NCBI GenBank assembly: GCA_964582235.1
Contig: CAZOQW010000001.1
Coordinates: 76,835 to 140,834, forward strand
Direction of reading: 5' to 3'
DNA: 64,000 nt
Source: an uncultured Muribaculaceae bacterium
GTDB taxonomy: Bacteria; Bacteroidota; Bacteroidia; Bacteroidales; UBA932
Position numbers and translations under genes: made by a program. Numbering within the stretch: the stretch's first letter is position 1; each line of letters opens with the position of its first letter. The notes under the pieces are model-generated. The model ran no database searches. It had not been told where the DNA came from and worked only from the letters and a program-made list of their open reading frames with translations. This document shows positions 21,275-40,712 of this stretch, in pieces.

Positions 21275-21348
21275 GGCGCCTTAGCTCAATTGAATAGAGC
21301 ATTTGACTACGGATCAAAAGGTTGCAGGTTTGAGTCCTGCAGGCGTCA
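21275..21348 (+). tRNA. tRNA-Arg(ACG)
   Basis: Acceptor ggcgcct/aggcgtc, anticodon arm tttga-ctACGga-tcaaa, T arm gcagg/cctgc. Confidence 0.95.
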
Positions 21349-21351
21349 CAA

Positions 21352-21449: not shown

Positions 21450-22661
21450 ATGACATCATTGAAAGTAAAATTCCGCCCCTCTACTGTGACCGCAAAAGAG
21501 GGAACGTTGTATTATCAAGTGATACACAACCGCATGGTGCGGCAGATCAGCACCGGTTACAGATTGTTCGCGAATGAATGGGACGGCAAGAACATTGTGC
21601 TGCCCGACGGGACGGACCACACAGATCGAAGCTGCTATTTGAACGGACTGCTTAACTGCCTGCGACAGGACACTGCCCGCTTGCAGTCCATCATCCAAAG
21701 CTTGGAACGGCAAGGCGGGACATTCACGTCTGAAGAGGTGATTAATGCGTACCTCGCGCCGGAGAGAGACACGGGCATGTTCTGCGCCTTTGCCCGCAGC
21801 GTGGCGGATCAGATGAAACGCATTGGCAAGGAACGCCTTTCGGAAACATATCACAGCTCAGTGAACAGTTTCCTGCGCTTCCGCGGCGTGGAGGGCGACG
21901 TTCCATTGGAGGATGTCGATGCCGACCTAATGTCGGAGTATGAAGCTTATCTGCAGGGACAAGGTCTGGTACCCAACACCACCTCGTTTTACATGCGCAA
22001 CCTGCGTGCAATCTATAACCGCGCGGTAGAAAAGAAATTGGTGGATGACCGACAGCCGTTCAGGCACGTTTATACCGGCATCGGGAAAACCGTGAAACGA
22101 GCAGTCACGCCTGAGATTATGAGCCGCATCAAACAACTTGACGTTCCGTCGGGCAGCCTGTTGGAACTGGCACGCGACCTGTTCATGTTCAGCTTCTACA
22201 CACGCGGCATGTCATTCATCGATATGGCCCATCTGAAAAAGAAAGACTTGCAAAACGGCTTGCTTGTCTACCGTCGGCAGAAAACCGGACAGCAACTGTT
22301 CATCAAGTGGGAGCAGCCCATGCAGGAAATCGTCAGCCGGTATGCCGACCCGGAATCGCCCTACCTGTTGCCCATTATCACCCGTCCCGGAGAGGACGAA
22401 CGGCGACAGTACCTGAGTGCCATACACCGCATAAATACCCGTTTGAAAGAAATCGGGAATCGTGTAAACGCCACAATAACATTGACTTCGTATGTTTCGA
22501 GGCACGGGTGGGCCAGCATAGCCAAGAGTCGGAACGTGCCGATTGCCGTTATCAGTGAAGCCCTGGGACATGAGTCTGAAAGTACCACGCGTATCTACTT
22601 GGCATCATTGGATTCATCCGTAGTGGATAATGCGAACAGCAAGGTCATCTATTCCGTCTGA
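21450..22661 (+). CDS. Tyrosine site-specific recombinase (Bacteroidetes integrase/invertase type)
   Basis: N-terminal arm-binding-like domain, SAM-like middle, catalytic YTRGM.F.D, YRRQKT, YVSRHGWAS, ISEALGH, TRIY. Confidence 0.92.
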   Translation: MTSLKVKFRPSTVTAKEGTLYYQVIHNRMVRQISTGYRLFANEWDGKNIVLPDGTDHTDRSCYLNGLLNCLRQDTARLQSIIQSLERQGGTFTSEEVINAYLAPERDTGMFCAFARSVADQMKRIGKERLSETYHSSVNSFLRFRGVEGDVPLEDVDADLMSEYEAYLQGQGLVPNTTSFYMRNLRAIYNRAVEKKLVDDRQPFRHVYTGIGKTVKRAVTPEIMSRIKQLDVPSGSLLELARDLFMFSFYTRGMSFIDMAHLKKKDLQNGLLVYRRQKTGQQLFIKWEQPMQEIVSRYADPESPYLLPIITRPGEDERRQYLSAIHRINTRLKEIGNRVNATITLTSYVSRHGWASIAKSRNVPIAVISEALGHESESTTRIYLASLDSSVVDNANSKVIYSV

Positions 22662-22704
22662 AGAAGCGTAGCGGGGAACACGGGAATGCCGGAAGTGTTG
22701 GGAA

Positions 22705-22920
22705 ACATCTCTTGGTAAGAGATGTCTTTAAACCTCGCAAAGATATAAAAAATCCACTAACTGCCACATAAAAACAGCACAAAACATCCGGCTTGAGTCT
22801 ATTGGTATTGCTGTGTTTCACAAAATTCAAGGATTTGTTTCACAAACCCGAATTACAATTTATGCAAATGCTTCGCTTTCAGGCAGGAAGCATAAAGTTC
22901 CATCTCTTACCAAGAGATGT
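22705..22920. mobile_element. Invertible promoter segment (inverton), 216 bp, bounded by 20-bp perfect inverted repeats
   Basis: acatctcttggtaagagatg (22705-22724) and catctcttaccaagagatgt (22901-22920) are exact reverse complements; lies between the recombinase and upxY. Confidence 0.9.
22738..22768 (-). promoter_or_regulatory. Promoter inside the inverton (TGTG-N19-TATCTTTG) pointing away from the capsule genes (OFF)
   Basis: caaagata at 22738-22745 and caca at 22765-22768 on the plus strand. Confidence 0.75.
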
Positions 22921-23027
22921 ACCGGTCGGGACGAATTATCCCCCCCCCGAACTTTTTTGCAGAAATGCGGTAACTCCATGTGTATCAATCAGATTGACAC
23001 ACATGGAGGAATCAGGAAAGTGCCCAC

Positions 23028-23615
23028 ATGACCATTAACGTCTCAAAGACATTTCTTTATCCTATGAGCAACGGAATGCAAGCGGAACAAGACAGCCGAC
23101 AATGGTTTGCCCTGCGCGACCTTAAGCGCAGGCACGCCAAGTTACCCGCTTACAAAATGTTCGAGGGCTTGAATATGCGGTTCTTCACTCCCATGGAACA
23201 CAGGTTGGTCGTTGTGAACGGCAAACGAGTGGATCAGGAAGTGCCTTTCATTCAAGATTTGCTTTTCGTGAAGGACACGAGGGAACATCTCGATTCCATC
23301 GTGGAAAGCACACCCAAGTTGCAATACCGCTATAGGTTAGGAATGCGGAACACGCCCATTGTCATACCGACCGCCGAAATGGAACGCTTCATAAATGCGG
23401 TGGAGGCCAGCGAGCATCCCAAATTCTACTCCCCCGATGAGGTGACAGCCGACATGAGGAAACGGCAGGTCCGCATCATCGGCGGGCTGCTGGACGGACA
23501 GACGGGCACCTTGGTGACCACACGCGGCTCAAAGACCAAAAGATTGCTGGTGGAATTGCCTGCTCTATTGGTAGCTTCGGTGGAGGTCGAGCCGGAATAT
23601 ATCCAATTGGTGTGA
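23028..23615 (+). CDS. upxY: UpxY-family (NusG paralog) antiterminator
   Basis: WFALR, V.QEVPFI..LLFV, P.VIP..EM..FI, KOW-like VRIIGG.L.G..G; first gene of the locus; true start may be 23064 or 23076. Confidence 0.85.
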   Translation: MTINVSKTFLYPMSNGMQAEQDSRQWFALRDLKRRHAKLPAYKMFEGLNMRFFTPMEHRLVVVNGKRVDQEVPFIQDLLFVKDTREHLDSIVESTPKLQYRYRLGMRNTPIVIPTAEMERFINAVEASEHPKFYSPDEVTADMRKRQVRIIGGLLDGQTGTLVTTRGSKTKRLLVELPALLVASVEVEPEYIQLV

Positions 23616-23648: not shown

Positions 23649-24089
23649 ATGACTTATCTGCTTTTGATAAGTAGTTTCCTGCTATCTGTATTGCTTGGGA
23701 TGATGATTATCCCCGAAATACTGCTGATTTCCCACAAGAAACGCCTGTTCGATATGCCCGACAGCCGCAAGGTGCATACCACGCCCATCCCGCGCCTCGG
23801 AGGACTATCTTTCTTCCCGGTGATACTCATCACCACGTGCCTCGTGCTGGGAATCAGTTATTATGCAGGCTTCCCCATCAAGAACCTGCCGGCCAATGCC
23901 ATGTTTTACGAGTTTCCGTTCATCACGGTCGGATGTATGATGCTTTACCTGACGGGGATGACGGACGATCTGATAGGTGTCCCATACCGCCGCAAGTTCC
24001 TTGTGCAGATTACCGCCGCCCTGATGCGGTTGGGCATCAATCGGATTATCAGGCGGCATGAACGCATGACCGGACAGACATCAAACTGA
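23649..24089 (+). pseudogene. WecA/MraY-family initiating transferase, internally truncated
   Basis: LFDMPDSRKVHTTPIPRLGG, GMTDDLIGV..RRKF.VQ, then directly a short tail; 146 aa, lacks the N.IDG.DGL and FMGD motifs. Confidence 0.8.
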
Positions 24090-24106
24090 AAACAACCGAC
24101 CATCGA

Positions 24107-24919
24107 ATGAAAACAACATTATTCGCCTTTTCCCTGCTATTGGCGGGAACGGCGTTCCTGAGTTCCTGCGGTACATCCAAGAATGTAATCTATTTCCAGG
24201 ACCTGCAACCGGGGAAAAGTGAGATAACACTGCCGGATGTGAAAGCCATCACCGTGCAGCCGGAAGACAAAATCTCAATCATCGTCAACAGCCGCGACCC
24301 GCAGCTGACGGACTTGTTCAATTTGCCGTATGTGACAAGGCAGCTTGGCCAATCTTCGACGAATTATTCAACTACATACAGTGCAGGCATTTCGGGATAT
24401 ACAGTGGATGCCAGCGGAGACATCGACTTCCCTGTACTAGGCAAAATACACGTGGCCGGCATGAAAAGGGAGGAGGTGGCCGCCTACATCAAGGACAGAC
24501 TGGTCGCCGACAATCTGGTAAAAGACCCCGTGGTGACCGTAGAGTTTATGAACCTGTGCATATCAGTATTAGGTGAAGTGAATAATCCGGGAAGATTTGA
24601 CATCGACCGCGATAAGGTGACTGTGCTTGATGCCCTCAGTATGGCGGGCGACCTGACCATCTACGGTAACCGCTCCAAAGTCATGGTACTCCGTCAGGAA
24701 GGAGAAGTGCAGCGAGTCTATGGTATTGACTTGACGTCCGGCAGGCATATATACACGTCCCCAGCTTATTACTTGCAGCAAAATGACGTGATTTATGTTG
24801 AGCCCAATGATGTAAGGTCAAGGCAATCCACCGTAAATGGCAACAATGTACGCTCAACGTCATTTTGGATTTCATTGGGATCTCTGTTGACATCTATCGC
24901 TATCCTCATATTTAACTAA
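24107..24919 (+). CDS. wza: Polysaccharide export outer-membrane lipoprotein
   Basis: Lipobox LSSC, Y.VD..G.I.FP.LG, VLGEV..PG, DALSMAGDLT.YG.R, YYLQQNDVIYVEPN. Confidence 0.9.
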   Translation: MKTTLFAFSLLLAGTAFLSSCGTSKNVIYFQDLQPGKSEITLPDVKAITVQPEDKISIIVNSRDPQLTDLFNLPYVTRQLGQSSTNYSTTYSAGISGYTVDASGDIDFPVLGKIHVAGMKREEVAAYIKDRLVADNLVKDPVVTVEFMNLCISVLGEVNNPGRFDIDRDKVTVLDALSMAGDLTIYGNRSKVMVLRQEGEVQRVYGIDLTSGRHIYTSPAYYLQQNDVIYVEPNDVRSRQSTVNGNNVRSTSFWISLGSLLTSIAILIFN

Positions 24920-24936
24920 ACCCAGATAATAGATCA

Positions 24937-27321
24937 ATGGCTGTTCAGAACAACACATTAGGGATTGTGCAAACGGACAATTATATCCGTTTGCAGGACT
25001 TGCTTCGCATATGTTTAGGTAAGTGGTACTGGTTTGCCATTTCCTTGGGTATCTGCCTTACTGTCGCGGTGGTGTACCTGCTGACGACCCCACCCGTATA
25101 TACACGCTCAGCCTCCCTGCTTATCAAGGAAGAAAGCAAAGGCAATTCAATGAATGATGTGGCCGGAGTGCTGGGGTCTTTAAACATCTTCCAAACCAAC
25201 ACCAATGTGAATAACGAGATTCAGTCTCTGCAATCTCCTGTGGTAATGCTTGATGTGGTTAAGCGACTTAATCTGAACATCAACTATCTGACAGACGGCC
25301 GATTCCGCAAGCAGGTGCTATATGGGGAGTCTATTCCCTACAAGATAGAATTCCTTGACTTGGCTGATAATGACAATCTTTCCCTGGTAATGGAAAAAGT
25401 TGACGATAATGGTGTGTTATTGTCTGATTATGTCTTGAATGGAGAGGATGTTGATGGAGAGAATACAGTATATTTCAATGACATAGTGGACACTCCCGTT
25501 GGCAGAATCTCCGTTCGGGCTGTAGAGAATCAGGATAGCGTGGAGTACAAGCGTATTTATGTTTCACGTACCGGGCTACAAGCAACCGTTGCTGATTACG
25601 CGTCAAATTTAACGGTCTCCCTCAGCGATGAGAAATCCACTGTAATCAATCTTGTCTTCAAGGATGTCTGCATCCAGCGTGCAGAAGAAGTGTTGAATAC
25701 CATAATCGCCGTTTACAACGAGAATTGGATTAGGGACAAGAATCAGATTGCCGTAAGCACATCATTGTTTATCAACGAGCGTCTCAGCGTAATCGAGCGT
25801 GAACTCGGCAATGTCGATGAAAACATATCGTCCTATAAGAGCGAAAATCTTCTTCCCGATGTGCAGGCGGCAGCAAGTATGTATATGGCTCAAACCAGCG
25901 AGACCCATTCCCGGATTATGGCTGTAAATACGCAGCTTTCGATGGCCCGCTATATCAAGAGTTATCTGGGAAATGTCACGAGTCAGAATCAACTGTTGCC
26001 TGCCAACTCTGGAATTGAAAGCCCAAGCATAGAGAAGCAGATTACTGATTACAACACTATGCTGCTAAGGAGAAATAACTTGGCAGCCAACAGCAGTGAG
26101 AGTAACCCGTTGGTTATAGACATGGATCACTCGCTGCAGAACATGCGCAATGCTATCATGTCCTCGATTGACAACCTCATTACAACTTTGGATACGCAAC
26201 TTCAATCGCTTCAAATAAGTGAGCAACAGACTACGGCGAGAATTGCCGCCAATCCCGCACAAGGACAATATCTGTTATCAGTAGAGCGCCAGCAGAAAGT
26301 AAAGGAGTCGTTGTATTTGTTCCTGTTGCAAAAGCGTGAGGAGAATGAACTCTCACAGGCCTTTACCGCTTATAATACAAGGGTTATTACACCTCCGACA
26401 GGCAGCCCCTTCCCCTCTTCTCCCGTAAAGAGAAATGTATTGTTAGTTGCCTTTGTTATCGGTATGCTTATCCCCCTTGTGATAATATTCCTGCGCGAGA
26501 ATATGAACACGAAGCTTAGAGGCCGTAAAGATTTGGAGAATCTTTCTGTTCCATTCCTGGGGGAAATCCCTTTGCATGGCAGCAACGGGAAGAAAGGCAG
26601 TCATGAAGTGTCGGAGATAGTCATCCAGCATGGTAAGCGTGATGTTATTAATGAAGCATTCCGTGTATTGCGGACAAACATCGAGTTCATGCTTGACACA
26701 AATAATAAAGATACTGCTACAGTTTGTCTCTTTACTTCGTTTAATCCAGGCAGTGGTAAAACATTCTTGACCATAAATACGGCGGCTTGTTTGTCTCTAA
26801 GGGGAAAGCGTGTCTTGGTGATTGACGGAGACTTACGCCGCGCTTCAATTTCCGCCACTTTTGCCAACTCACCCAAATCAGGATTGAGCGATTATTTGGG
26901 CGGGCGTGTCGATGGCATTGATGATCTTATCGTTGATCCGGAGAATTATCCGGGCATCAGTCTATTACCTGTCGGAACCGTTCCTCCCAATCCTACAGAA
27001 CTTCTTGCCAAATCCCGGTTTAAGGAGATGCTTGATAAGGTGCGCGACAGGTATGACTACATATTCATCGACTGTCCGCCGGTGGACATTGTAGCTGACA
27101 CCCAAATCATTGAAAAGTTTGCAGACTGCACCCTGTTTGTTGTAAGGGTAGGGTTGCTGGAACGTGATATGTTGCCCGAACTGCAGCAGGCTTACGACGA
27201 GAAGCGGTATAAAAACCTGGCAGTCATTCTCAATGGCACGGACAGTGACGGAAAACGCTACGGATATAAATATGGTTACCATTATGGATATGGTAATAAT
27301 GGATATTATGGCAGCAAATAG
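24937..27321 (+). CDS. wzc: Chain-length regulator / BY tyrosine kinase
   Basis: Two TM segments, Walker A SFNPGSGKT, IDGDLRR, IFIDCPP, C-terminal Tyr cluster YGYKYGYHYGY. Confidence 0.93.
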   Translation: MAVQNNTLGIVQTDNYIRLQDLLRICLGKWYWFAISLGICLTVAVVYLLTTPPVYTRSASLLIKEESKGNSMNDVAGVLGSLNIFQTNTNVNNEIQSLQSPVVMLDVVKRLNLNINYLTDGRFRKQVLYGESIPYKIEFLDLADNDNLSLVMEKVDDNGVLLSDYVLNGEDVDGENTVYFNDIVDTPVGRISVRAVENQDSVEYKRIYVSRTGLQATVADYASNLTVSLSDEKSTVINLVFKDVCIQRAEEVLNTIIAVYNENWIRDKNQIAVSTSLFINERLSVIERELGNVDENISSYKSENLLPDVQAAASMYMAQTSETHSRIMAVNTQLSMARYIKSYLGNVTSQNQLLPANSGIESPSIEKQITDYNTMLLRRNNLAANSSESNPLVIDMDHSLQNMRNAIMSSIDNLITTLDTQLQSLQISEQQTTARIAANPAQGQYLLSVERQQKVKESLYLFLLQKREENELSQAFTAYNTRVITPPTGSPFPSSPVKRNVLLVAFVIGMLIPLVIIFLRENMNTKLRGRKDLENLSVPFLGEIPLHGSNGKKGSHEVSEIVIQHGKRDVINEAFRVLRTNIEFMLDTNNKDTATVCLFTSFNPGSGKTFLTINTAACLSLRGKRVLVIDGDLRRASISATFANSPKSGLSDYLGGRVDGIDDLIVDPENYPGISLLPVGTVPPNPTELLAKSRFKEMLDKVRDRYDYIFIDCPPVDIVADTQIIEKFADCTLFVVRVGLLERDMLPELQQAYDEKRYKNLAVILNGTDSDGKRYGYKYGYHYGYGNNGYYGSK

Positions 27322-27332
27322 CCAGAAGCAGC

Positions 27333-28001
27333 ATGTGGCCATTTCGCAAAAAGATAACCCTTGAGGAAAGCGGTTTTTTAAACGGCTTCACTGACTGGCA
27401 TAGTCATATACTCCCTGGAGTAGATGACGGTGTTCAGACAATGGAGGAAGCCTTACGAATATTGGCCGAATACGAGCGACTCGGTGTAAAGGAAGTCTGG
27501 CTTACCCCTCACATCATGGAGGATATTCCAAATACTACTGAGGGCTTGAGGGAACGATTCTCTGACCTGCAGGCTGAGTACAAGGGGAACATGGAACTGC
27601 ATTTGGCTGCCGAGAATATGCTGGATAAGCTATTCGAGGAACGGTTGCGGGGAAATGACCTTTTACCCTTGGGAAAGGAGAGGAACCAGTTGTTGGTGGA
27701 AACCTCCTGTTACAATCCGCCGATGGGCTTGCCGGACATCCTGCAATGCATAAAGTCTAAAGGTTATTTTCCGGTACTGGCCCATCCGGAGAGATATGCC
27801 TACATGGATGCAGACTATTACCGCCGGCTTAAAGACATGGGCGTCAAATTCCAGTTGAACTGTTTCTCTCCATCAGGCTTTTACGGCGAAGAAGCCAAGA
27901 AAAAGTCGGAATACCTGCAGAAACATGAAATGTATGACTGTTCAGGGACGGACTTGCATAGCTTAGAGGTTTTGAAAAAGATGCTGCAGATTAAAGGATG
28001 A
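27333..28001 (+). CDS. wzb: PHP-family tyrosine phosphatase (CpsB/CapC)
   Basis: DWHSHILPGVDDG, LTPH, LAHPERY, GTDLH. Confidence 0.88.
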   Translation: MWPFRKKITLEESGFLNGFTDWHSHILPGVDDGVQTMEEALRILAEYERLGVKEVWLTPHIMEDIPNTTEGLRERFSDLQAEYKGNMELHLAAENMLDKLFEERLRGNDLLPLGKERNQLLVETSCYNPPMGLPDILQCIKSKGYFPVLAHPERYAYMDADYYRRLKDMGVKFQLNCFSPSGFYGEEAKKKSEYLQKHEMYDCSGTDLHSLEVLKKMLQIKG

Positions 28002-29149
28002 AGAACGTGCTTATTGTTTCTCAGGTTATTCCTCAATGGTATGTTGAGACATTGAGGAATGCATTGGGAAAAGATACTTGCATAGATATTATTACGGGAA
28101 GTGAGGTGACAGACTGCAATGTGATACCCTCACCTCCCCATGATGCCCGCAATTTCAGGTCACGTATAGTCTGTTGGATAAGACATTATCGTTTTGTCAA
28201 ACAGTGGACAAAGAAGAATCGGCATAGACATTACGATCTGATTTTTGCCGTATCAAATCCTCCCATTAATGCTGCGATTGGGCTGAAGCTAAAGAAACTG
28301 TTCAATGCACCATTTGTTTATATGAACTGGGATTTATATCCCCAAGTCATCGAATATGGTGTGAGAAATGTGGTTGGCAAAACAGTCAGTCTCTTGTGGC
28401 ATAGCTGGAACAAGCGTAATTACCAAAAGATAGACCGAATGCTGACCATTGGCAATATAATGGCAGAAACTATCAATAGCAGCATAGAGAGGAAAATCAA
28501 AATTGATGTATTGCCTGTTGCCGTAGATACCGTTCGTCTGCACCCAATAGAAAAGGCGAATAATCCCTTTGCTGTGGAGCATCACCTGACTGATAAATTT
28601 GTTGTACTCTATTCAGGCAAAATGGGAGTCGGACACAATATTGAACTTATATTGGCAGCTTCCCGATTATTGGAGAAGCATACCGATATCTATTTTGTCT
28701 TTATTGGCAATGGTCCCAAGTATGAGGTAGTAAAACGCTTTATAGCAGAAAATAATTCCAAAAACATACTGCTTCTCCCTTTACAAGCCGAAGATATGTT
28801 TCCCTACTCAATGGCTTGTGGAGATATAGGAATAGTATCGCAAGAGGCAAGCATGGCACATTTATTCATGCCCAGCAAGGTATATAGCATGATGGCGTGC
28901 GGGGAAGCTATAATTGGAATTGGCTCAGAGTATGACGATTTGAAATGCCTTATAGAACGTGCGAATATAGGATTCAACATATCAAGGAATGATGCAAAAT
29001 ATTTAGCGAATTGCATTTTTAAGTTATATGACAATTTAAAGTTGCTAAATTTCTTCAAGGTAAATGCTCGAAGAACAGCAGAATTGGACTATTCTATAAG
29101 CGTAATGCAAAGTCGTTATTCTACATTGTTTAATAGTTTGTCCAAATAA
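27998..29149 (+). CDS. GT4-family glycosyltransferase
   Basis: SNPP, DLYP, YSGKMG..H, FIGNG, PSKVY..MA.G. Confidence 0.85.
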   Translation: MKNVLIVSQVIPQWYVETLRNALGKDTCIDIITGSEVTDCNVIPSPPHDARNFRSRIVCWIRHYRFVKQWTKKNRHRHYDLIFAVSNPPINAAIGLKLKKLFNAPFVYMNWDLYPQVIEYGVRNVVGKTVSLLWHSWNKRNYQKIDRMLTIGNIMAETINSSIERKIKIDVLPVAVDTVRLHPIEKANNPFAVEHHLTDKFVVLYSGKMGVGHNIELILAASRLLEKHTDIYFVFIGNGPKYEVVKRFIAENNSKNILLLPLQAEDMFPYSMACGDIGIVSQEASMAHLFMPSKVYSMMACGEAIIGIGSEYDDLKCLIERANIGFNISRNDAKYLANCIFKLYDNLKLLNFFKVNARRTAELDYSISVMQSRYSTLFNSLSK

Positions 29150-29158
29150 GAAGGCGTT

Positions 29159-30340
29159 ATGCCCACATTGCTTCAAATTAATACTGTTGTCAATACCGGT
29201 TCTACAGGACGGATTGCTGAAGAGATAGGCAAAATTGCAATTTCACGCGGATGGAAAAGTTATATTGCCTATGGAAGAGGAAAGCCGCAAAGTGAATCAC
29301 AGCTGATTAGAATAGGAAATGATTGGGATATGTACAGCCACATCCTTCAATCCCGGTTGTTTGATAATCATGGATTGGCATCCAAGAATGCTACAGAAAA
29401 GTTTATCAAGCAGATTGAAAGAATAAAGCCCGATGTAATACACTTGCATAATATTCATGGTTACTACCTGAATTATGAAATATTATTTCAATATTTTGCA
29501 CACATAGATACCCCAATAATATGGACGCTGCATGATTCTTGGGCATTGACTGGCCATTGTGCTTGTTATGAATGTGCAGACTTCGATGCAGATTGTAAGA
29601 GTTGCCACTATATACACAGCTATCCAAAGTCTTTATTCCTATCAAGAAGTAAGAAAAACAAAGAAAACAAAAAAAAGGTTTTTACTTCTGTAAACAGAAT
29701 GACCATAGTGACAGTTTCAAAGTGGTTGGAAAGTTGTGTAAAAAAAACATTTCTAAACAAGTACCCTATCAAAACAATCTATAATGGAATAGATACTCAA
29801 ATTTATAGACCCTTGCCTTATTTGAAGCAAAATGTTAAAACTTTATTAAGTGTTGCAAATATTTGGTCTGAGAGAAAGGGCTTAAAGGATATTATTGCAT
29901 TAAGAGAACATCTCCCATTTGAGTATCAGATCATCTTAATTGGATTATCCAAGAAACAAATACAAAATTTGCCTCCGGGCATAACAGGCATTCCTCGGAC
30001 AGACTCTCAATTAGAATTAGCAAGATATTATTCAAATGCCGATGTTGTCCTAAGTTTATCAACTTACGAGACTTTCGGACTTACAGTTGCTGAAAGTTTA
30101 GCTTGCGGAACACCAGTAGTTGTGTATAATATTACATCACCTCCGGAATTGGTGACTAATGACATAGGTAGAGTTGTAAATATTCACGATATAGAAGGTG
30201 TCAAATCGGCTATAATAGATTTATGCAATACCGAAAAAGAGTATTGGGTAAATACTTGTAGGTCAAAAGCTATAAAATTGTACAATGAGAGTTGCAACTA
30301 TTTGCAGTATTTCAATCTGTATAAGGCTTGCATTTTATAA
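29159..30340 (+). CDS. GT4-family glycosyltransferase
   Basis: GSTGRIA, HLHNIHG, WTLHD.W..TGHC, YETFGLTVAESLACGTPVV. Confidence 0.88.
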   Translation: MPTLLQINTVVNTGSTGRIAEEIGKIAISRGWKSYIAYGRGKPQSESQLIRIGNDWDMYSHILQSRLFDNHGLASKNATEKFIKQIERIKPDVIHLHNIHGYYLNYEILFQYFAHIDTPIIWTLHDSWALTGHCACYECADFDADCKSCHYIHSYPKSLFLSRSKKNKENKKKVFTSVNRMTIVTVSKWLESCVKKTFLNKYPIKTIYNGIDTQIYRPLPYLKQNVKTLLSVANIWSERKGLKDIIALREHLPFEYQIILIGLSKKQIQNLPPGITGIPRTDSQLELARYYSNADVVLSLSTYETFGLTVAESLACGTPVVVYNITSPPELVTNDIGRVVNIHDIEGVKSAIIDLCNTEKEYWVNTCRSKAIKLYNESCNYLQYFNLYKACIL

Positions 30341-30359
30341 TTGAATCCTTCTTCAACCA

Positions 30360-31556
30360 ATGCTGGAAATTATTTCAAAACTTTATACAATCACTTTAGT
30401 CCTATTACCGGCATTAAATGTATATAGAAGCCCTATACCTTCTGTAGAATTAGGTACGCTGATCATTCTTTTCTGCACTGTGTTCTTTTTCTGCAGTAAG
30501 CCCGGTATATATAAACCGGGACTTGGCTCTCTATGGATATATTTGTTGCTCGTGTTTTTTGTGTGTACAGCTATATCGTCCATTATACTTGACTATGACT
30601 CAGCGGAGTATAGTAAAGTGTACTTTAGATTTTTCAAAATCGTAATTATTGTAATTTCCATATTTATTATCGGAAAAGATCGGTTCAATTATGAACTGGC
30701 AATAAAAGCACTAAAGATATTCTCTTTACTATGTGCATTTTATATCATTGTACAAAATATTGGGTATTATTTATTTGGGATTAGAATTTTGGGTGTTTAC
30801 TCACCTTTAGCTTCTGTTGAGGAGTATGTGGAATTTGGAGCTAACGCCACTCAGGATGTGCTATATAGACCAAGTGCGTTCTTTTTTGAGCCTGCTCATT
30901 TTGCCTCTTACTCAATGGTATATCTGTGCCGGTTATTTACTCATGATGGAGAGAAATATCGCATTTGGCAAATAGTAATTATGATAACAGGCCTGCTGCT
31001 CTCAACATCCGGGACAGCTTTATCTATAATACCTGTCATTTTCTTACTTTCAATAGCTTTCAAAATACGCGAAGGGACAATAGCCTTTCATAATGCATGG
31101 AAATATATCTTGTTATTTCTCGTGGTAGCCGTGCTTATAAGAATCTTCTTAACGTCATATATAGGAAGTTCAGCTTTGGGACGTTTTTTTAATGATGATG
31201 GAACACTCGGAGGTGCATTTACCGGACGATTACAAAGCGGAGCATACGAATTATTCAAAGAGTTGCCTTCAGTTTTACAATTTATTGGCTGTGGATTTGG
31301 AAATAGACCTGCCGATGTGTACTTTCCAAGTATGTACGCAATTTTATATGGGGATGGATATTTAGGTCTTGCGCTATTTGTACTTCTTCTTATCATTTAC
31401 TTTGTCAAAGCACGAAATTTTGGGAAGATGCTTTGCCTCACTTATGGCTTACTGTTTATAGGTACAGGCGCTTTCAATTTTGCCAGTATCGGTCTATATT
31501 TTTGCTTAATTGCCGAAGAAACAAGAAAACGCGAATATGATAATTTTTATCAGTAA
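30360..31556 (+). CDS. wzy: Repeat-unit polymerase (Wzy-like)
   Basis: About 10-11 TM segments, R....F.EPAHF, periplasmic loop G.GFGN; position in the locus. Confidence 0.7.
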   Translation: MLEIISKLYTITLVLLPALNVYRSPIPSVELGTLIILFCTVFFFCSKPGIYKPGLGSLWIYLLLVFFVCTAISSIILDYDSAEYSKVYFRFFKIVIIVISIFIIGKDRFNYELAIKALKIFSLLCAFYIIVQNIGYYLFGIRILGVYSPLASVEEYVEFGANATQDVLYRPSAFFFEPAHFASYSMVYLCRLFTHDGEKYRIWQIVIMITGLLLSTSGTALSIIPVIFLLSIAFKIREGTIAFHNAWKYILLFLVVAVLIRIFLTSYIGSSALGRFFNDDGTLGGAFTGRLQSGAYELFKELPSVLQFIGCGFGNRPADVYFPSMYAILYGDGYLGLALFVLLLIIYFVKARNFGKMLCLTYGLLFIGTGAFNFASIGLYFCLIAEETRKREYDNFYQ

Positions 31557-32661
31557 TTTTGTTAGCCCTCATGTCCTCCCACTGTGCGATGAGCTTTATC
31601 GGCAATCTGAGGAGCAATTTAAGTTCATCGAAACGAGGCAAATGTCACTTGAACGACAAAACTTAGGATATAAACAACTACGGAACAGAAAGTTTGTTGT
31701 CACATACGAAAAGTATTCTAAGGATAAATCAGGTTATCAAGAAGAAATAAACAAGGCTGCTGTGGTTATGGCCAGTTTTGGCTCCATTAACAATAAGCTC
31801 CTTATGGATAGGATAAGGAATGATAAGCTGACTTTTTTGTTAGCAGAGCGAATGTTCAAAAAAGCGATTTTTAAATTCGCAGATCCTCGCTTCTGGAAAA
31901 ACCTATTATTCTTTTCAAGAATCAGGTATAAACAGTTTCATTTGCTATGTATGGGCGCATACGTAGCACAGGATTTTGCGCTGTGTGGTTTCAATCGCGA
32001 TCGGATGTGGAAGTTTGGATACATTACATCGGGATATGGCGAAAACAATTCCAATATACGAAAAAGTGAGAACAAAACTCTTAAATTGCTATGGGTGGGG
32101 CGTATGATATGGTGGAAACAGCCATTTCAAGTAATAAAGGCTGCAAAGATGCTGCATGAAAGGGGATATGATTTTACACTTGATATTGTGGGCGGAGGGA
32201 AATTAGAGAAGAAGATTAAAGCTTATATTGAAAAAACTAATCTTTCCGAAATCACTTATCACGGCTTGAAAAAGAACGATGAAGTAAAAGAGCTGATGCA
32301 ACATTCCGATTTCTTGATTTGTACAAGTAACCGACTCGAAGGATGGGGAGCAGTAATCAACGAAGGGATGGATGCGGGCTGCGTCGTAATTGCCAGCAAG
32401 CAGATGGGGGCCACACCCTATCTTATAACGGATGGAGTGACCGGATATAGTTATTCGGGAGGAGCAAAGGCTTTGTTTCAGGCATTAGCCAAGGCATTCG
32501 AAAGAAATCGTATAGAAATAAGCAAAAATGCACAGACATTTATCCGTGAGAGTTGGAGTGCAGATATTGCCGCACGACGTCTATTAGGATTAATCTCTTT
32601 CATACAACAGGATAAGCAGCATAAAAGATTGTATGATAGCGGAATCTGTAGTAAAGCTTAA
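31537..32661 (+). CDS. GT4-family glycosyltransferase
   Basis: LWVGRM..WK, IVGGG, EGWGAVINEGM..GC (ExxxxxxxE). Confidence 0.85.
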   Translation: MIIFISNFVSPHVLPLCDELYRQSEEQFKFIETRQMSLERQNLGYKQLRNRKFVVTYEKYSKDKSGYQEEINKAAVVMASFGSINNKLLMDRIRNDKLTFLLAERMFKKAIFKFADPRFWKNLLFFSRIRYKQFHLLCMGAYVAQDFALCGFNRDRMWKFGYITSGYGENNSNIRKSENKTLKLLWVGRMIWWKQPFQVIKAAKMLHERGYDFTLDIVGGGKLEKKIKAYIEKTNLSEITYHGLKKNDEVKELMQHSDFLICTSNRLEGWGAVINEGMDAGCVVIASKQMGATPYLITDGVTGYSYSGGAKALFQALAKAFERNRIEISKNAQTFIRESWSADIAARRLLGLISFIQQDKQHKRLYDSGICSKA

Positions 32662-32664
32662 CTG

Positions 32665-33936
32665 ATGAAACAATTAATTTACCGCCTTCGGAAAAGTTCC
32701 TTGATGAGAGACTCCTTTTGGGCGTTGCTGGGCAATGTCTTGGGAAAAGGACTGGCATTGGTTGCCGGAATTGCCGTAGCGCGCTTTCTTGGAAGCGAAG
32801 CATATGGTGAATATGGGATGATACGCAATAACTTGACAATGATAGCTATATTCTCTTCATTAGGATTGGGATACACAGCTACAAAGTTTATTGCAGAATG
32901 CAAAGGCAATAAAGAACAAGCATACTCGATACACAAAGTAGTTTCACGTATCACATGGGTTACAAGTGGAGTTATCATGGTGCTTGTGATAGTGCTTGCC
33001 AATCCACTTGCCACTTGGCTCGATGCTCCACATCTTGGTCGCTTGTTGATGCTTGCATCTGTTGCAGTTGTATTTAATGCCGTGAACACTACGCAAATAG
33101 GTGAACTGTCAGGGTTTAATGCATATAAGGAGATTGCATTTAACAATACTTGGGCCGGCATTGTCACTTTCGTAGTAAGTGTAGGTCTTACTTTCTTTTA
33201 CGGTATTGAGGGAGCAGTTATCGCATTAATCATTTCATTTGCTACCAACTGTTTGCTAAATTTGCGTTCACTCAAAAAATATTTGCCACGACAAAAAGTT
33301 GTCAATGGTAATACCAATTTCCGAGAAATACTCTCATTTACTTTTCCAGTGGCGTTGCAAGAAAGTTCTTACTCCATAACACACTGGCTAAGCACAATAT
33401 TGCTAATCAAGCTCGCCGGATATGGAGAACTCGGATTATACTCTGCAGTAGCGCAATGGATGGGTGTAATGCTGTTTATCCCGGCAGCATTACGCAATGT
33501 GGCACTGTCCCATCTATCAAAAAGCAACGATGACATGAATACAAATAAACAAGTGTTGAAGCGTATGCTACAAATCAACCTTGTAACGACACTCATTCCA
33601 TTTATAGTTATTGCGCTGCTTTCCGGCTGGATTTGTTCATGGTACGGAGAAAGCTATGTTGGCATGCAGAGTGTGCTGAACGTATGCATGTTTACAACAG
33701 TTTTCAACAGCCTTTCCAATGTGTTAACTCAAAACTTAATTGCAATGAATCAGAATTGGTATCTTTTCACAACTCGCATAATTCGTGATTTGTTAATATT
33801 AGGTTTTGCGGCTTTACTGATTTTAAAATTGGGCAAAGGTTCTCTTATGTACGCTTTAGCTTCGCTTATATTTCAGATTATATATTTATTTCTTTTGCTG
33901 TCCAAACAACACTCTTTGTTCAAAAAGTGTAAATAA
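32665..33936 (+). CDS. wzx: Repeat-unit flippase
   Basis: ARFLG...YGEY, about 12 TM segments, second G..ELGLYS repeat. Confidence 0.85.
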   Translation: MKQLIYRLRKSSLMRDSFWALLGNVLGKGLALVAGIAVARFLGSEAYGEYGMIRNNLTMIAIFSSLGLGYTATKFIAECKGNKEQAYSIHKVVSRITWVTSGVIMVLVIVLANPLATWLDAPHLGRLLMLASVAVVFNAVNTTQIGELSGFNAYKEIAFNNTWAGIVTFVVSVGLTFFYGIEGAVIALIISFATNCLLNLRSLKKYLPRQKVVNGNTNFREILSFTFPVALQESSYSITHWLSTILLIKLAGYGELGLYSAVAQWMGVMLFIPAALRNVALSHLSKSNDDMNTNKQVLKRMLQINLVTTLIPFIVIALLSGWICSWYGESYVGMQSVLNVCMFTTVFNSLSNVLTQNLIAMNQNWYLFTTRIIRDLLILGFAALLILKLGKGSLMYALASLIFQIIYLFLLLSKQHSLFKKCK

Positions 33937-33970
33937 AAATTCGTAACTTAAATTAATCGGCATAATTATT

Positions 33971-34507
33971 ATGATGTATCCCAAGCGCCTTTTTATTATA
34001 AACAAGTTAGTTGGTTTGCTCCCTATGTCGAAGTGTAACTCGCTGAAGTCAAGACTATATAAATGGGGGGGAGTAAAAATTGGCAACAATGTAGAACTAT
34101 TTTCCGGCCTTAAAATAATAGGCAATGGTGAACTGGAAATAGGGGATAATGTCTTTATTGGCACAGAGGCAATGATTTATGTTAACAGAGGCAGCAAAGT
34201 TATTCTTGAAGAACACGCTTCTGTAGGAACTCGTGCCATAATTGTTACTGGCTTCCATCCGATTACGCCAGAGGGGCCACGGATAACCAGTCATAAAAGC
34301 ACAACAAGTACTGTAAGGGTTTGCAAGGGGGCTTCTGTCGGTACTGCAACTATTGTTTTACCAGGCATAACTGTAGGAACAATGGCTCACTGCGTGGCTG
34401 GGGCTGTAGTAACTCACGATGTGCCTCCATACCACAGAGTTGGAGGCGTTCCCGCCCGGTTTATTCGTGACTTGAGGCTTCCAAAGGAAAATAACAATAA
34501 TGTATAA
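33971..34507 (+). CDS. Left-handed beta-helix (hexapeptide) acyltransferase
   Basis: IGNNV, IGDNVFIG repeats, VLPGITVG, VTHDVP...VGGVPARFI. Confidence 0.85.
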   Translation: MMYPKRLFIINKLVGLLPMSKCNSLKSRLYKWGGVKIGNNVELFSGLKIIGNGELEIGDNVFIGTEAMIYVNRGSKVILEEHASVGTRAIIVTGFHPITPEGPRITSHKSTTSTVRVCKGASVGTATIVLPGITVGTMAHCVAGAVVTHDVPPYHRVGGVPARFIRDLRLPKENNNNV

Positions 34508-35108
34508 GCATTATTTAAAGCGGGTAATAGATTTCATTCTCGTTCTTTGTGCCTTGGCTGTTATTTGGCCTGTGCTTGTTATAATAGCTATTTTGCTTCA
34601 TTTCGCCAACAAAGGTGCAGGGGCTTTTTTTTTACAAGAGCGACCGGGTAAGGATGGGAAGATATTCAAGGTCATCAAATTCAAGACTATGACTGATGAA
34701 CGGGATGCAGATGGTAATTTGTTGCCCGACGAAAAACGGATTACGAAAATAGGGAAACTGATTCGTTCTATCAGCATTGACGAACTACCACAGCTTATTA
34801 ATGTACTGAAGGGTGATATGTCGCTTATTGGCCCTCGTCCTTTATTGGTGCAATATCTGCCGCTATATAGCAAAGAGCAAGCACGACGGCACGAAGTACG
34901 TCCCGGCATAAGCGGGTGGGCGCAATGTCATGGACGCAATGCTATTAGTTGGACAGAAAAGTTCAAACTTGATGTGTGGTATGTTGACCATTGCTCTTTC
35001 AAAGTGGATATGAAAATTATATGGATTACTCTACTGAAAGTAATCAAGCGTGCCGATATCTCCCAGGAAGGGCGAGCCACGATGGACTATTTTGACGGCA
35101 CAAATTAG
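34500..35108 (+). CDS. Initiating phosphoglycosyl transferase (PglC-like, Bac_transf)
   Basis: KRVIDF, FLQERPG..GK.FK.IKFKTM, SIDELPQLINVLKGDMSLIGPRP, RH.VRPGISGWAQ. Confidence 0.92.
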   Translation: MYKHYLKRVIDFILVLCALAVIWPVLVIIAILLHFANKGAGAFFLQERPGKDGKIFKVIKFKTMTDERDADGNLLPDEKRITKIGKLIRSISIDELPQLINVLKGDMSLIGPRPLLVQYLPLYSKEQARRHEVRPGISGWAQCHGRNAISWTEKFKLDVWYVDHCSFKVDMKIIWITLLKVIKRADISQEGRATMDYFDGTN

Positions 35109-35121
35109 ACAGCTTGGAAAA

Positions 35122-36075
35122 ATGAAAAATATATTGATAACTTCTGCAGGTAAGCGGGTAGCGTTGACAAAAGCATTCAAAGAGACTACGGTACGATTTG
35201 ACTCTCACGCCAAGGTGTTTACCACAGACATGAATCCGAGTATGGCTCCTGCGGCATACGTCAGCGACAAGTGCTTTGAAGTTCCGCGAGTAACCGATGA
35301 TGCTTATCCGGAATTCCTGCTGAAACTCTGCGTGGATAATGAAATTGGCATGGTAGTGCCGACCATTGACACAGAATTAATGGTGCTGGCACACGTGAAA
35401 GAAATGTTTGCCTCAAGAGGTGTCCATGTGATAATTTCCAGCCCATCATTCATAACGACATGTCGGGACAAACGAAATACAGAAAGATTTTTCGAGCAAC
35501 ATCACATACGCATCCCTACAGCCATAGACAAACATCATCCCTCCTTCCCTCTGTTTGCCAAGCCCTACGACGGGTCGCTGAGCACAAACCTGCACTATAT
35601 CAAGAATGAAGCTGAACTTACTCCCGACATTCTGAGTGACCCCAAATTGATGTTTATGGAGTATATCGACAAGGCCATATATAAGGAATACACCGTTGAT
35701 ATGTATTATGGTAAGGATAACCGTTTGAAATGTCTTGTGCCTCGTGAGCGTATTGAGATACGTGCAGGAGAGATAAACAAAGGCAGAACGGCAAAGAATG
35801 GTTTGGTTGCCTTTTTAAAAGAACGATTGGAATATGTCGAAGGCTGTGTGGGATGTATATGCCTGCAGCTGTTTTATCATGCCGAAACGAACGATGTGAT
35901 TGGTATTGAAATCAATCCCCGTTTCGGTGGTGGTTACCCTTTATCCTATGCAGCCGGTGGAAATTTCCCGAAGTTTCTTATTCAAGAATACTTTCGGAAC
36001 GAAGTTTTGGCGTATACCGATGATTGGAAAGACAAGCTGTTAATGCTTCGGTACGATGATGCCATTTTCGTGTAA
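35122..36075 (+). CDS. ATP-grasp fold ligase
   Basis: ILITSAGKRV, VVPTIDTEL, CRDK, FAKPYDGS.S, MEYI, EYTVD, IEINPRFGGG. Confidence 0.85.
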   Translation: MKNILITSAGKRVALTKAFKETTVRFDSHAKVFTTDMNPSMAPAAYVSDKCFEVPRVTDDAYPEFLLKLCVDNEIGMVVPTIDTELMVLAHVKEMFASRGVHVIISSPSFITTCRDKRNTERFFEQHHIRIPTAIDKHHPSFPLFAKPYDGSLSTNLHYIKNEAELTPDILSDPKLMFMEYIDKAIYKEYTVDMYYGKDNRLKCLVPRERIEIRAGEINKGRTAKNGLVAFLKERLEYVEGCVGCICLQLFYHAETNDVIGIEINPRFGGGYPLSYAAGGNFPKFLIQEYFRNEVLAYTDDWKDKLLMLRYDDAIFV

Positions 36076-36739
36076 ACAATTAGTTTGTTTTGACCTCGAT
36101 GATACACTCTATAAAGAGGTATGGTATCTTAAATCGGCATTCAAGGAGGTTGCGAACTTTATCGCTCAATCCGGTGAATCTGATTCAGCTGCTATATATG
36201 AAGCTATGATAACATTGTGGGGCGAGGGTAAATCGCCTTTTCAAGAAATAAACACATTGCTCCATATAGATGTTCCCATTAAGGAGTGCCTACGTATCTA
36301 TCGGGAGCACAAACCGTATATCCATTTGGATGAAGGAACACAAAATACCCTGAAAGCCTTGCGAAAGAATGGTTGTACTATCGGGCTTATTACAGACGGC
36401 AGGAGCATAACCCAACGAAACAAGATAGAAGCGTTAGGTTTGCATACTTATATAGCAGAAAATGACATAATTGTTTCAGAGGAATTTGGTTCAGAGAAAC
36501 CTTCCGTACAAAACTACTTATACTTCATGGAGAAATACCCTCATGCTGCATTTACGTATGTAGGGGATAACCTTGCCAAAGATTTTATTGCTCCCAACTC
36601 ATTGGGTTGGAAAACCATTTGCCTTTTGGACAATGGAGAAAACATACATCAGCAAGATTTATCCTTATCCAAGGAGTATCAGCCAAATTTCTTTATCAAA
36701 GACATTATGGAAACTGTTGAACTGCTTAACAGATGTTGA
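36056..36739 (+). CDS. HAD-superfamily hydrolase
   Basis: FDLDDTLY, ITDG, EKP, YVGDNLAKDF. Confidence 0.85.
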   Translation: MMPFSCKQLVCFDLDDTLYKEVWYLKSAFKEVANFIAQSGESDSAAIYEAMITLWGEGKSPFQEINTLLHIDVPIKECLRIYREHKPYIHLDEGTQNTLKALRKNGCTIGLITDGRSITQRNKIEALGLHTYIAENDIIVSEEFGSEKPSVQNYLYFMEKYPHAAFTYVGDNLAKDFIAPNSLGWKTICLLDNGENIHQQDLSLSKEYQPNFFIKDIMETVELLNRC

Positions 36740-37395
36740 TAGAATTTAGTGGCTTGGATTGCGCCGGCAAGTCCACCCAAATTGATTTGCTTGTGGAATA
36801 CCTGCACAAGCGAGGGTATAAGGTTAAAACCGTTTGGAGTCGAGGTGGTTATACGCCGGGGATCACCTGGCTGAAGAATTTGGTACGAGGAGGGAAGGGG
36901 AAATCACCGGAGCAAATGTCTCAAGCCGAACGGGAGGCCAAAGCGAATGCAAAACCACAAGGCGGGAAGTTACTGTTGTGGTTGTCTATCCTTGACCTCA
37001 TTGCATACTGGGGTATTGTATTCAGAATATGGAGTAGAGGAAGGAAGGTATTATTGTGCGACAGATATTTATCGGACACATACATAGATTTCAAACTGAA
37101 ATATCCGACTGTATCATTTCAAAAATGGCAGGTTTGGAAAATTCTGGTAAATGTTTACAGAAAGCCAACTTACTCTTTTGTACTGACTATTACACCTGAA
37201 GAGAGTATGAGGAGATCAAGCCTGAAATTTGAGCCGTTCCCTGAATCGCAGGAGAAGCGGGAGAAGCGGCTTGAAATGTATTTGAAGGAAATTAAAAATG
37301 GCCGATGGCAATATGTGGTGGACTGCATGAGACCCATCAATGACATTCATCAAGAACTAAAATCGAAGATAGATGAAAATCTCGGAAATGCTTGA
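36733..37395 (+). CDS. Thymidylate-kinase-like P-loop kinase
   Basis: IEFSGLDCAGKSTQ, LCDRY. Confidence 0.8.
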   Translation: MLIEFSGLDCAGKSTQIDLLVEYLHKRGYKVKTVWSRGGYTPGITWLKNLVRGGKGKSPEQMSQAEREAKANAKPQGGKLLLWLSILDLIAYWGIVFRIWSRGRKVLLCDRYLSDTYIDFKLKYPTVSFQKWQVWKILVNVYRKPTYSFVLTITPEESMRRSSLKFEPFPESQEKREKRLEMYLKEIKNGRWQYVVDCMRPINDIHQELKSKIDENLGNA

Positions 37396-40700: not shown

Positions 40701-40712
40701 AACAACTAATTT

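What the first reader, a model, noticed from the sequence alone, without database searches (positions are those of the whole stretch)
22705..22920. Capsule ON/OFF inverton caught in the OFF state, next to its probable recombinase
Seen: 20-bp perfect inverted repeats, each itself a dyad (acatctc-ttggtaa-gagatgt) with an asymmetric core; the enclosed TGTG-N19-TATCTTTG promoter points toward the recombinase 3' end; inversion would aim it at upxY about 290 bp away. Established: Bacteroides capsule loci are phase-varied by invertible promoters, some by locally encoded tyrosine recombinases. Inference: ORF 21450 flips this segment; in the OFF state the promoter would transcribe antisense into the recombinase, a possible feedback that biases switching.
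Basis: partly seen in the sequence, partly recalled or inferred. Interest (0 to 1): 0.7.

Follow-up and report, generated by a model that had tools for sequence, protein, structure and literature searches.

The report
Invertible capsule promoter, currently OFF
This is an ordinary example of a well-known gut-Bacteroidales device: a 216-bp DNA segment carrying a promoter that a neighbouring tyrosine recombinase can flip to switch a capsule operon on or off, and here it is assembled in the OFF direction.

Summary
Two perfect 20-nt inverted repeats (22705-22724, 22901-22920) flank a 176-nt segment. That segment holds the only strict Bacteroides -7 box (TATCTTTG, minus strand) between the recombinase gene and upxY, and the box points back at the recombinase, so the switch is OFF. 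Each repeat is a 21-bp 9-3-9 palindrome; only the centre is asymmetric (GGT versus ACC).

- **Genes.** Upstream lies an intact tyrosine recombinase (21450-22661). Downstream lie a UpxY antiterminator and a roughly 21-kb capsule operon.
- **Inversion.** Bird-gut metagenome contigs 95-99% identical to the window carry the segment exactly inverted between the same flanks. The ON and OFF contigs differ in flank SNPs, so they are probably different strains. Switching within a clone is not shown.
- **Family.** Of 82 homologous recombinase loci across Bacteroidales, 57 have the same kind of inverton just downstream. It has TCTCT...AAGAGA dyad sites and one -7 box 3-15 nt from one repeat, and 48 are OFF against 11 ON.
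- **Literature.** Published work calls this arrangement typical.

Verdict: a new member of a known kind, of low to moderate interest.

The parts
21450..22661 (+). Tyrosine site-specific recombinase (403 aa), the probable invertase
   Evidence: Pfam hits: Arm-DNA-bind_5, Phage_int_SAM_5 and Phage_integrase. R252, K278, Y348-x-x-R351, H374 and Y383 are invariant in 75 homologues. It aligns to the XerA structure 4a8e over the catalytic domain.
22705..22725 (.). Left recombination site (IR-L): 21-bp palindrome ACATCTCTT|GGT|AAGAGATGT
22900..22920 (.). Right recombination site (IR-R): cCATCTCTT|ACC|AAGAGATGT, same arms with the centre reversed
22725..22900 (.). Invertible interior (176 nt between the 20-nt arms)
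   Evidence: Found inverted between the same flanks in contigs of runs X1, X2 and X3.
22738..22745 (-). Bacteroides -7 promoter box TATCTTTG, pointing at the recombinase (OFF)
   Evidence: The only strict TAnnTTTG in 22600-23030. Of 69 family invertons, 59 carry such a box on one strand only, and in 57 of those 59 it lies 3-15 nt from one repeat.
22765..22768 (-). -33-like element TGTG, 19 nt upstream of the -7 box
   Evidence: Related strains read TTTG here, through the 22767 C>A change.
22836..22846 (-). Family-conserved internal element (TTTGTGAAACA on the promoter strand). A second direct copy lies at 22814-22824. It is part of a hairpin plus T-run at 22849-22831.
   Evidence: (repeat family D4). 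Its function is unknown.
22921..23027 (+). upxY leader: poly-C9 at 22940-22948, GAACTTTTTTG, and a 17-bp-arm hairpin at 22974-23008
   Evidence: (inverted pair I2). The leader holds no strict TAnnTTTG box, the only fixed-promoter motif I searched for.
23028..23615 (+). upxY (NusG-like, operon-specific antiterminator)
   Evidence: NCBIfam NF033644 at 121.7 bits, cut-off 100; Pfam NusG. The true start may be the ATG at 23064 or 23076.
23649..43903 (+). Capsule biosynthesis and export operon: WecA-like remnant, Wza, Wzc, CpsB phosphatase, glycosyltransferases, Wzx flippase, aminotransferase, CapD-like dehydratase
   Evidence: GC is 36-47% over 24-44 kb (36-44% over the biosynthesis genes at 28-44 kb), against 53-57% in the upstream backbone.

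Best explanation
The 216-bp segment 22705-22920 is an invertible promoter that phase-varies a UpxY-headed capsule operon.

**Sites (shown).** Each end is a tyrosine-recombinase core site: two 9-bp inverted binding arms (ACATCTCTT / AAGAGATGT) around an asymmetric centre, GGT on the left and ACC on the right.

**Recombination (inferred).** The recombinase encoded 43 bp upstream probably binds both sites. It would exchange strands in the 6-8 bp around the centre. Because the two centres are in opposite orientation, the outcome is inversion, not deletion.

**OFF state (orientation shown, transcription inferred).** In this assembly the internal promoter (-33 TGTG, N19, -7 TATCTTTG) faces the recombinase, so the operon has no promoter of its own.

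**ON state (inferred).** After inversion the -7 box would lie at about 22880-22887. Transcription would start just before IR-R, run through a structured leader of about 135 nt, and enter upxY and the roughly 21-kb operon. UpxY would then keep RNA polymerase elongating through the operon.
For: - Perfect repeats that are unique in the window, each a 9-3-9 dyad.
- The only strict -7 box between the two genes lies inside the segment and faces backwards.
- Contigs from three bird-gut metagenomes, 95-99% identical, carry the segment inverted with breakpoints inside the repeats. X2 contig 6 spans both junctions; X1 contigs 3 and 4 and X3 contig 9 span one junction each.
- The recombinase is intact, and its catalytic R-K-(Y)xxR-H-Y residues are invariant in 75 homologues.
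- 57 of 82 homologous loci have an inverton of the same design immediately downstream, 48 OFF and 11 ON. Near-identical invertons occur in both orientations: L076 versus L077, and L058 versus L045/L048/L054.
- Loci sharing the same arm sequence have slightly more similar recombinases: 58.3% versus 55.6% identity, with 7 of 2000 permutations reaching that difference.
- UpxY and the capsule genes are confirmed.
[quoted passage not shown] It calls an invertible promoter upstream of upxY typical of capsule loci in gut Bacteroidales (PMC13114119). Knock-out proof exists for other Tsr enzymes (PMC4747536, PMC12940148).
Against: - No experiment or read-level data for this strain. The one 100%-identical public contig (L081) is also OFF.
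- ON and OFF contigs in X1 and X3 differ at flank positions (22690 versus 22704/22706). They probably come from different co-resident strains, so switching within a clone is not demonstrated.
- The -33 element is a 3-of-4 match. In the related strains the -7 box reads TATCTTCG.
- Recombinases acting in trans are documented in this group, so the adjacent gene need not be the only invertase, or the invertase at all (PMC12940148, PMC13114119).
- No UpxZ gene was recognised after upxY.
Confidence: 0.85

Rival explanations
1. The segment is a genuine inverton, but it is flipped mainly by a recombinase encoded elsewhere in the genome, either a paralogous Tsr or a global invertase. The adjacent gene would be redundant or would serve other sites.
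For: In P. vulgatus two Tsr enzymes cross-react on each other's promoters, and single knock-outs have no effect (PMC12940148). A P. vulgatus capsule promoter still inverts although its local recombinase is a pseudogene (PMC13114119). [quoted passage not shown] Only 64 kb of this genome is visible.
Against: The local gene is intact with all catalytic residues. The pairing of recombinase and inverton is conserved in 57 of 82 loci. Arm sequence tracks recombinase similarity weakly. No Mpi-type repeat ARACGTWCGT occurs in the window, and no second copy of this site occurs in the window.
Confidence: 0.15
2. The OFF-state promoter has a second job. It transcribes antisense into the recombinase gene and so biases or damps switching.
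For: The geometry allows it. The -7 box lies 77 nt from the recombinase stop codon and faces it. No terminator-like site lies between them on the minus strand. The predicted OFF transcript starts with the IR-L hairpin, followed by only three U residues. Many family members place the repeat only 20-50 nt after the stop codon.
Against: There are no RNA data. The tight spacing may simply reflect compactness. None of the papers I read reports such a feedback for these switches.
Confidence: 0.2
3. The recombinase is the integrase of a genomic island inserted at tRNA-Arg (21275-21349), and the capsule locus is its cargo. The repeats would then be incidental.
For: A tRNA gene ends 100 nt upstream of the recombinase start. 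The domain layout (arm-binding, SAM-like and catalytic domains) is that of integrases. The capsule genes have much lower GC than the backbone.
Against: No repeat of the tRNA 3' end occurs anywhere in the window. Only 4 of 60 homologous loci have any tRNA within 4 kb upstream, and each is a different tRNA. The recombinase gene has backbone-like GC. The segment is observed inverted, not excised.
Confidence: 0.03
4. The switch is a frozen relic in this strain: the sites and the gene are present, but inversion no longer occurs.
For: Both copies of this exact sequence (the window and L081) are OFF. Orientation differences are seen only between strains.
Against: The two arms are 20/20 identical. The recombinase reading frame and active site are intact. 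Close relatives differ in orientation, so inversion was recent.
Confidence: 0.07

Closest known systems
Tsr (tyrosine recombinase)-linked invertible promoters of Bacteroidales polysaccharide loci, for example B. fragilis Tsr19/BF2766 with the EPS promoter IVp-I, and P. vulgatus BVU2677/BVU2684 (PMC4747536, PMC12940148, PMC13114119)
   Same: A tyrosine recombinase gene sits immediately upstream. A short segment flanked by inverted repeats carries a Bacteroides -7 promoter. Downstream are polysaccharide export and synthesis genes (Wza, Wzc). The OFF orientation is common in assemblies. Some relatives have several repeat copies or tandem switches (L082, L002).
   Different: The published repeat motif for the Tsr19 group (TACTTNNNANGTAANNGAA) is not this sequence. 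The host is an unnamed bird-gut Bacteroidales with about 55% GC.
Mpi-controlled capsule promoters of Bacteroides fragilis (PSA-PSH)
   Same: Invertible promoters upstream of upxY-headed capsule operons, giving ON/OFF phase variation.
   Different: Mpi is a serine recombinase that acts globally on ARACGTWCGT repeats. No such motif occurs in the window, and the neighbouring enzyme here is a tyrosine recombinase.
E. coli fim switch (FimB/FimE acting on fimS)
   Same: Adjacent tyrosine recombinases invert a short promoter segment (fimS is about 314 bp) bounded by short inverted repeats. The recombinase gene reads towards the switch, so its transcript could depend on orientation.
   Different: The proteins, sites and promoter type are unrelated, and the cargo is a capsule rather than fimbriae. 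The fim details are from my own knowledge and were not tested here.
Simple tyrosine-recombinase core sites (loxP, FRT, dif)
   Same: Two inverted binding arms flank a short asymmetric crossover region that sets directionality.
   Different: Here the arms are 9 bp and only 3 central bp are asymmetric. The enzyme also has an N-terminal arm-DNA-binding domain, as lambda-type integrases do. The loxP, FRT and dif details are from my own knowledge.

Membership tests
Tsr-linked invertible promoters of Bacteroidales | Tyrosine recombinase gene directly adjacent to the invertible region | tested here: met
   ORF 21450-22661 ends 43 bp before IR-L. It has Phage_integrase, SAM_5 and Arm-DNA-bind_5 domains, and its catalytic residues are invariant across homologues.
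Tsr-linked invertible promoters of Bacteroidales | Inverted repeats flanking a segment of roughly 130-300 bp | tested here: met
   20-nt perfect arms 176 nt apart. Family segments have 133-254 nt between the repeats.
Tsr-linked invertible promoters of Bacteroidales | Bacteroides-type promoter (-33 TTTG / -7 TAnnTTTG) inside the segment | tested here: met
   TATCTTTG with TGTG 19 nt upstream. The same placement is seen in 57 of 59 box-bearing family invertons.
Tsr-linked invertible promoters of Bacteroidales | Both orientations exist in nature | tested here: met
   Contigs carry the segment inverted between identical flanks in X1, X2 and X3. These are probably different strains. Switching within a clone was not tested.
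Tsr-linked invertible promoters of Bacteroidales | Inversion depends on the adjacent recombinase | not testable with these tools
   This needs a knock-out and complementation. The only indirect support is conserved synteny and weak co-variation of arm sequence with enzyme similarity.
Mpi-type (serine recombinase) capsule invertons | Inverted repeats containing ARACGTWCGT | tested here: not met
   No match anywhere in the window. The repeat here is ACATCTCTTGGTAAGAGATG.
UpxY/UpxZ-regulated capsule operon | First gene encodes a UpxY-family NusG paralogue | tested here: met
   NF033644 at 121.7 bits, cut-off 100.
UpxY/UpxZ-regulated capsule operon | Second gene encodes UpxZ | tested here: not met
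   The second ORF (23649-24089) resembles only the N-terminal third of WecA. No UpxZ family hit was found.
tRNA-targeting island integrase | Direct repeat of the tRNA 3' end marking the far end of the island | tested here: not met
   The 23-nt tRNA-Arg 3' end has no second copy, even with up to 3 mismatches allowed. tRNA adjacency is absent in 56 of 60 homologous loci.

The most novel reading that the evidence does not exclude
This recombinase family may not work like a simple Cre-type invertase. Its members keep an N-terminal arm-DNA-binding domain, and their invertons keep a conserved element (TTTGyyNAACA) on the promoter strand at a fixed 45-68 nt from the promoter-distal repeat. That element could be an arm-type or accessory site that sets the direction or rate of switching. 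Together with the OFF promoter firing into the recombinase gene, it could explain why 48 of 59 assemblies sit OFF.
Probability: 0.15. Interest if true: 0.5.

Novelty: new member of a known kind. Interest (0 to 1): 0.3.

Why it matters
Phase-variable capsules shape how gut Bacteroidales evade phages and host immunity. This locus adds an unnamed bird-gut lineage to a well-described class. The family survey gives three things that could be reused for annotation and for choosing mutagenesis targets:
- a compact site rule: a TCTCT...AAGAGA dyad with a 3-5 nt asymmetric centre;
- the fixed position of the promoter next to one repeat;
- a 4:1 excess of OFF over ON in assemblies.

The locus itself does not change current understanding.

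Tried and rejected
- **RNA evidence.** No RNA run holds the locus, so promoter activity and antisense transcription could not be examined.
- **Read-level switching in the source strain.** Only Logan contigs of related strains were available. The 100%-identical contig L081 is OFF. A second run search returned the same study's runs and nothing closer to this strain.
- **Metagenome scan.** An exact-match scan for the 20-mer found five contigs, all from other species. Each carries the same site pair with one changed base in one arm. None is this locus in the ON form.
- **Organism name.** The best genome hit to the recombinase is only 61% identical. The DnaJ look-up found nothing. The host remains an unnamed Bacteroidales with about 55% GC.
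- **Island-integrase reading.** Rejected.
- **Mpi-type switch.** Rejected.
- **Rfam.** No family matches the leader or the inverton.
- **UpxY detection in relatives.** My home-made UpxY profile found UpxY downstream in only 15 of the related loci. The others carry different cargo: an outer-membrane barrel protein, SusC, a methylase or an SNF2 helicase. The recombinase family is therefore not capsule-specific.
- **Internal hairpin as a universal terminator.** A strong hairpin plus T-run is not consistently present across the family.
- **Papers not held.** Coyne and Comstock 2008 and Jiang et al. 2019.

Full report
**Observation**

The window holds a perfect 20-nt inverted repeat, with arms at 22705-22724 and 22901-22920 and 176 nt between them.
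- It is the longest short-range inverted repeat in the 64 kb.
- The 20-mer occurs nowhere else in the window, where 0.01 matches are expected by chance.
- Each arm is itself a palindrome. The two sites therefore differ only in the orientation of the central trinucleotide.
- A strict Bacteroides -7 box (TAnnTTTG) occurs once on either strand of 22600-23030. It is TATCTTTG on the minus strand at 22745->22738, with TGTG 19 nt upstream.

**Surroundings**

- ORF 21450-22661 (+) is a 403-aa tyrosine recombinase with arm-binding, SAM-like and catalytic domains.
  - It aligns to the archaeal XerA structure over the catalytic domain.
  - R252, K278, Y348-x-x-R351, H374 and Y383 are invariant in an alignment of 75 homologues.
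- ORF 23028-23615 is a UpxY-family antiterminator, scoring 121.7 bits on NF033644 against a cut-off of 100.
- A co-directional run of genes follows, ending at 43903: a WecA-like remnant, Wza, Wzc, a CpsB-type phosphatase, glycosyltransferases, a Wzx-type flippase, an aminotransferase and a CapD-like dehydratase.
- The biosynthesis genes (28-44 kb) have 36-44% GC, against 53-57% in the upstream backbone.
- A tRNA-Arg gene (21275-21349) with its terminator lies just upstream of the recombinase.

**Does the segment invert?**

Contigs from three bird-gut metagenomes of one study match this region at 95-99% identity. I laid them on the window.
- X2 contig 6 reads left flank, then 22920->22705 on the opposite strand, then 21 nt that match the right flank in reverse. 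That is the complete ON form.
- X1 has one contig across the OFF left junction (depth 4.4) and two contigs across the ON left and right junctions (depth 4.0-4.2).
- X3 has OFF contigs (depth 3.7-4.6) and a short ON-junction contig (depth 2).
- The breakpoints fall inside the repeats. The repeats are 21 nt, shorter than the assembler's 31-nt words, so these junctions are unlikely to be assembly artefacts.

One caveat matters. The OFF contigs carry 22704 A>T and 22706 C>T, whereas the ON contigs carry 22690 C>T. ON and OFF therefore probably belong to different co-resident strains. The data show that the segment has inverted between very close relatives. They do not show switching within one clone. 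The only 100%-identical public contig (L081) is OFF, like the window.

**Family evidence**

A genome scan with the recombinase returned 80 loci across Bacteroides, Phocaeicola, Prevotella, Parabacteroides, Alistipes, Muribaculaceae and others, at 45-61% identity. Two more came from a metagenome scan.
- In 57 of 82 loci with enough sequence, an inverted-repeat pair of the same design lies just downstream of the recombinase. The design is a TCTCT-(3-5 nt)-AAGAGA dyad.
- Of 69 such invertons, 59 hold a TAnnTTTG box on one strand only. In 57 of these 59 the box lies 3-15 nt from the inner edge of one repeat, within a shared TTTTnnnTAnnTTTGC context. In the window that distance is 13 nt.
- 48 invertons face the recombinase (OFF) and 11 face away (ON).
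- Near-identical invertons occur in both orientations: L076 versus L077, and L058 versus L045/L048/L054.
- The closest relatives (60-66% identity) are followed by UpxY. More distant ones precede outer-membrane barrel proteins, a SusC-like transporter, DNA methylases or an SNF2 helicase. This is a general family of local invertases, with capsule loci as one of several cargoes.
- Loci with the same arm sequence have slightly more similar recombinases: 58.3% versus 55.6%, with 7 of 2000 permutations reaching that difference. This is weak support for enzyme-site pairing, and it is not corrected for phylogeny.

**Mechanism**

*Shown*
- The site architecture, the promoter orientation, the intact enzyme, inversion between close strains, and the conserved synteny.

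*Inferred*
- The recombinase binds the 9-bp arms of both sites and exchanges strands in the 6-8 bp around the asymmetric centre. Because the centres are antiparallel, the result is inversion.
- In the ON form the -7 box would lie at about 22880-22887. Transcription would start near 22892, immediately before IR-R, so the repeat would form the 5' hairpin of the mRNA.
- A structured leader of about 135 nt then precedes upxY.
- No strict TAnnTTTG box lies between IR-R and upxY. In the OFF form the operon therefore appears to lack a promoter of its own.
- Related strains read TTTG at the -33 position (22767 C>A) but TATCTTCG at -7. Each variant thus keeps one consensus element and one near-consensus element.

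The geometry permits it.
- The OFF promoter faces the recombinase 3' end, 77 nt away.
- No terminator-like site lies between them on that strand.
- The predicted OFF transcript begins with the IR-L hairpin, followed by only three U residues.
- Many family members place the repeat only 20-50 nt after the stop codon.

No RNA data exist for this locus, so the idea stays untested.

**Rivals**

- **A trans-acting invertase.** This is a real possibility. In P. vulgatus two Tsr enzymes cross-react, and a capsule promoter still inverts beside a dead local recombinase (PMC12940148, PMC13114119).
- **An island integrase at tRNA-Arg.** This is unlikely. No second copy of the tRNA 3' end occurs in the window. 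Only 4 of 60 homologous loci have any tRNA upstream, and each is a different tRNA.
- **An Mpi-type switch.** This is excluded, because no ARACGTWCGT motif occurs in the window.

**Comparison with what is known**

[quoted passage not shown] It also describes an invertible promoter upstream of upxY as typical of capsule loci in gut Bacteroidales (PMC13114119). Knock-outs have proved the role of Tsr19/BF2766 in B. fragilis and of BVU2677/BVU2684 in P. vulgatus (PMC4747536, PMC12940148). The UpxY leader mechanism is described in PMC11685472.

This locus meets every sequence-level criterion of that class. The one criterion that needs genetics could not be tested. It is a new member of a known kind.

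**Side observations**

- Tandem double invertons occur in relatives.
- A conserved internal element lies at a fixed position in family invertons.
- A conserved, covarying leader hairpin has no Rfam family.
- The poly-C tract in the leader varies in length among close strains.
- The WecA gene is truncated and no UpxZ was found.

Noticed in passing
L082 11609-12176 (also L085, L086; L002-L004, L012, L018, L027): Several related loci carry two invertons in tandem between the recombinase and upxY. In L082 both use the same arms (CATCTC/GAGATG) but different centres: TCTTTAA in the first and TTGGTAA in the second. Each holds its own backward-facing -7 box. The window has only the TTGGTAA type. Multiple repeats at the B. 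fragilis Tsr19 locus are reported to lower expression (PMC4747536).
   Followed up: partly
window 22814-22849: A sequence element is conserved inside invertons of this family (TTTGyyNAACA; TTTGTGAAACA in the window). It lies on the promoter strand in 25 of 56 distinct invertons, against 5 on the other strand, and always 45-68 nt from the promoter-distal repeat. In the window it is duplicated 22 nt apart and forms a hairpin followed by a T-run. Its function is unknown. It could be an accessory or arm-type site, or a read-through terminator.
   Followed up: partly
window 22930-23020: The upxY leader is conserved across UpxY-linked relatives. It comprises a small GC hairpin, GAACTTTT, about 15 nt, GTAACT, a longer hairpin (22974-23008) and GGAnT. 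In 9 loci, 6 of 9 predicted hairpin pairs show compensatory changes. No Rfam family matches. It may correspond to the pause/recruitment (ops) region described for B. fragilis UpxY (PMC11685472).
   Followed up: partly
window 22940-22948: The poly-C tract (9 C) in the leader varies in length among the related bird-gut contigs: one C fewer in X3 and one more in X1. Locus L034 has a run of 10 G at the equivalent leader hairpin. It is possibly a hypermutable tract.
   Followed up: no
window 23649-24089: The ORF after upxY encodes only the N-terminal third (about 110 of 346 profile positions) of a WecA-like initiating transferase and stops 18 nt before wza. It is probably a gene remnant. No UpxZ was recognised.
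   Followed up: partly
window 28000-44000: The capsule biosynthesis genes have 36-44% GC against 53-57% in the upstream backbone, which suggests horizontal acquisition. The recombinase and upxY are close to backbone GC.
   Followed up: no
L006, L013, L017, L019, L021, L026, L038, L045, L053, L067: Homologous recombinase-plus-inverton units sit in front of non-capsule cargo: small outer-membrane barrel proteins, a SusC-like transporter, DNA methylase-like proteins, an SNF2-type helicase and a repeat-rich helix-turn-helix-like protein.
   Followed up: no
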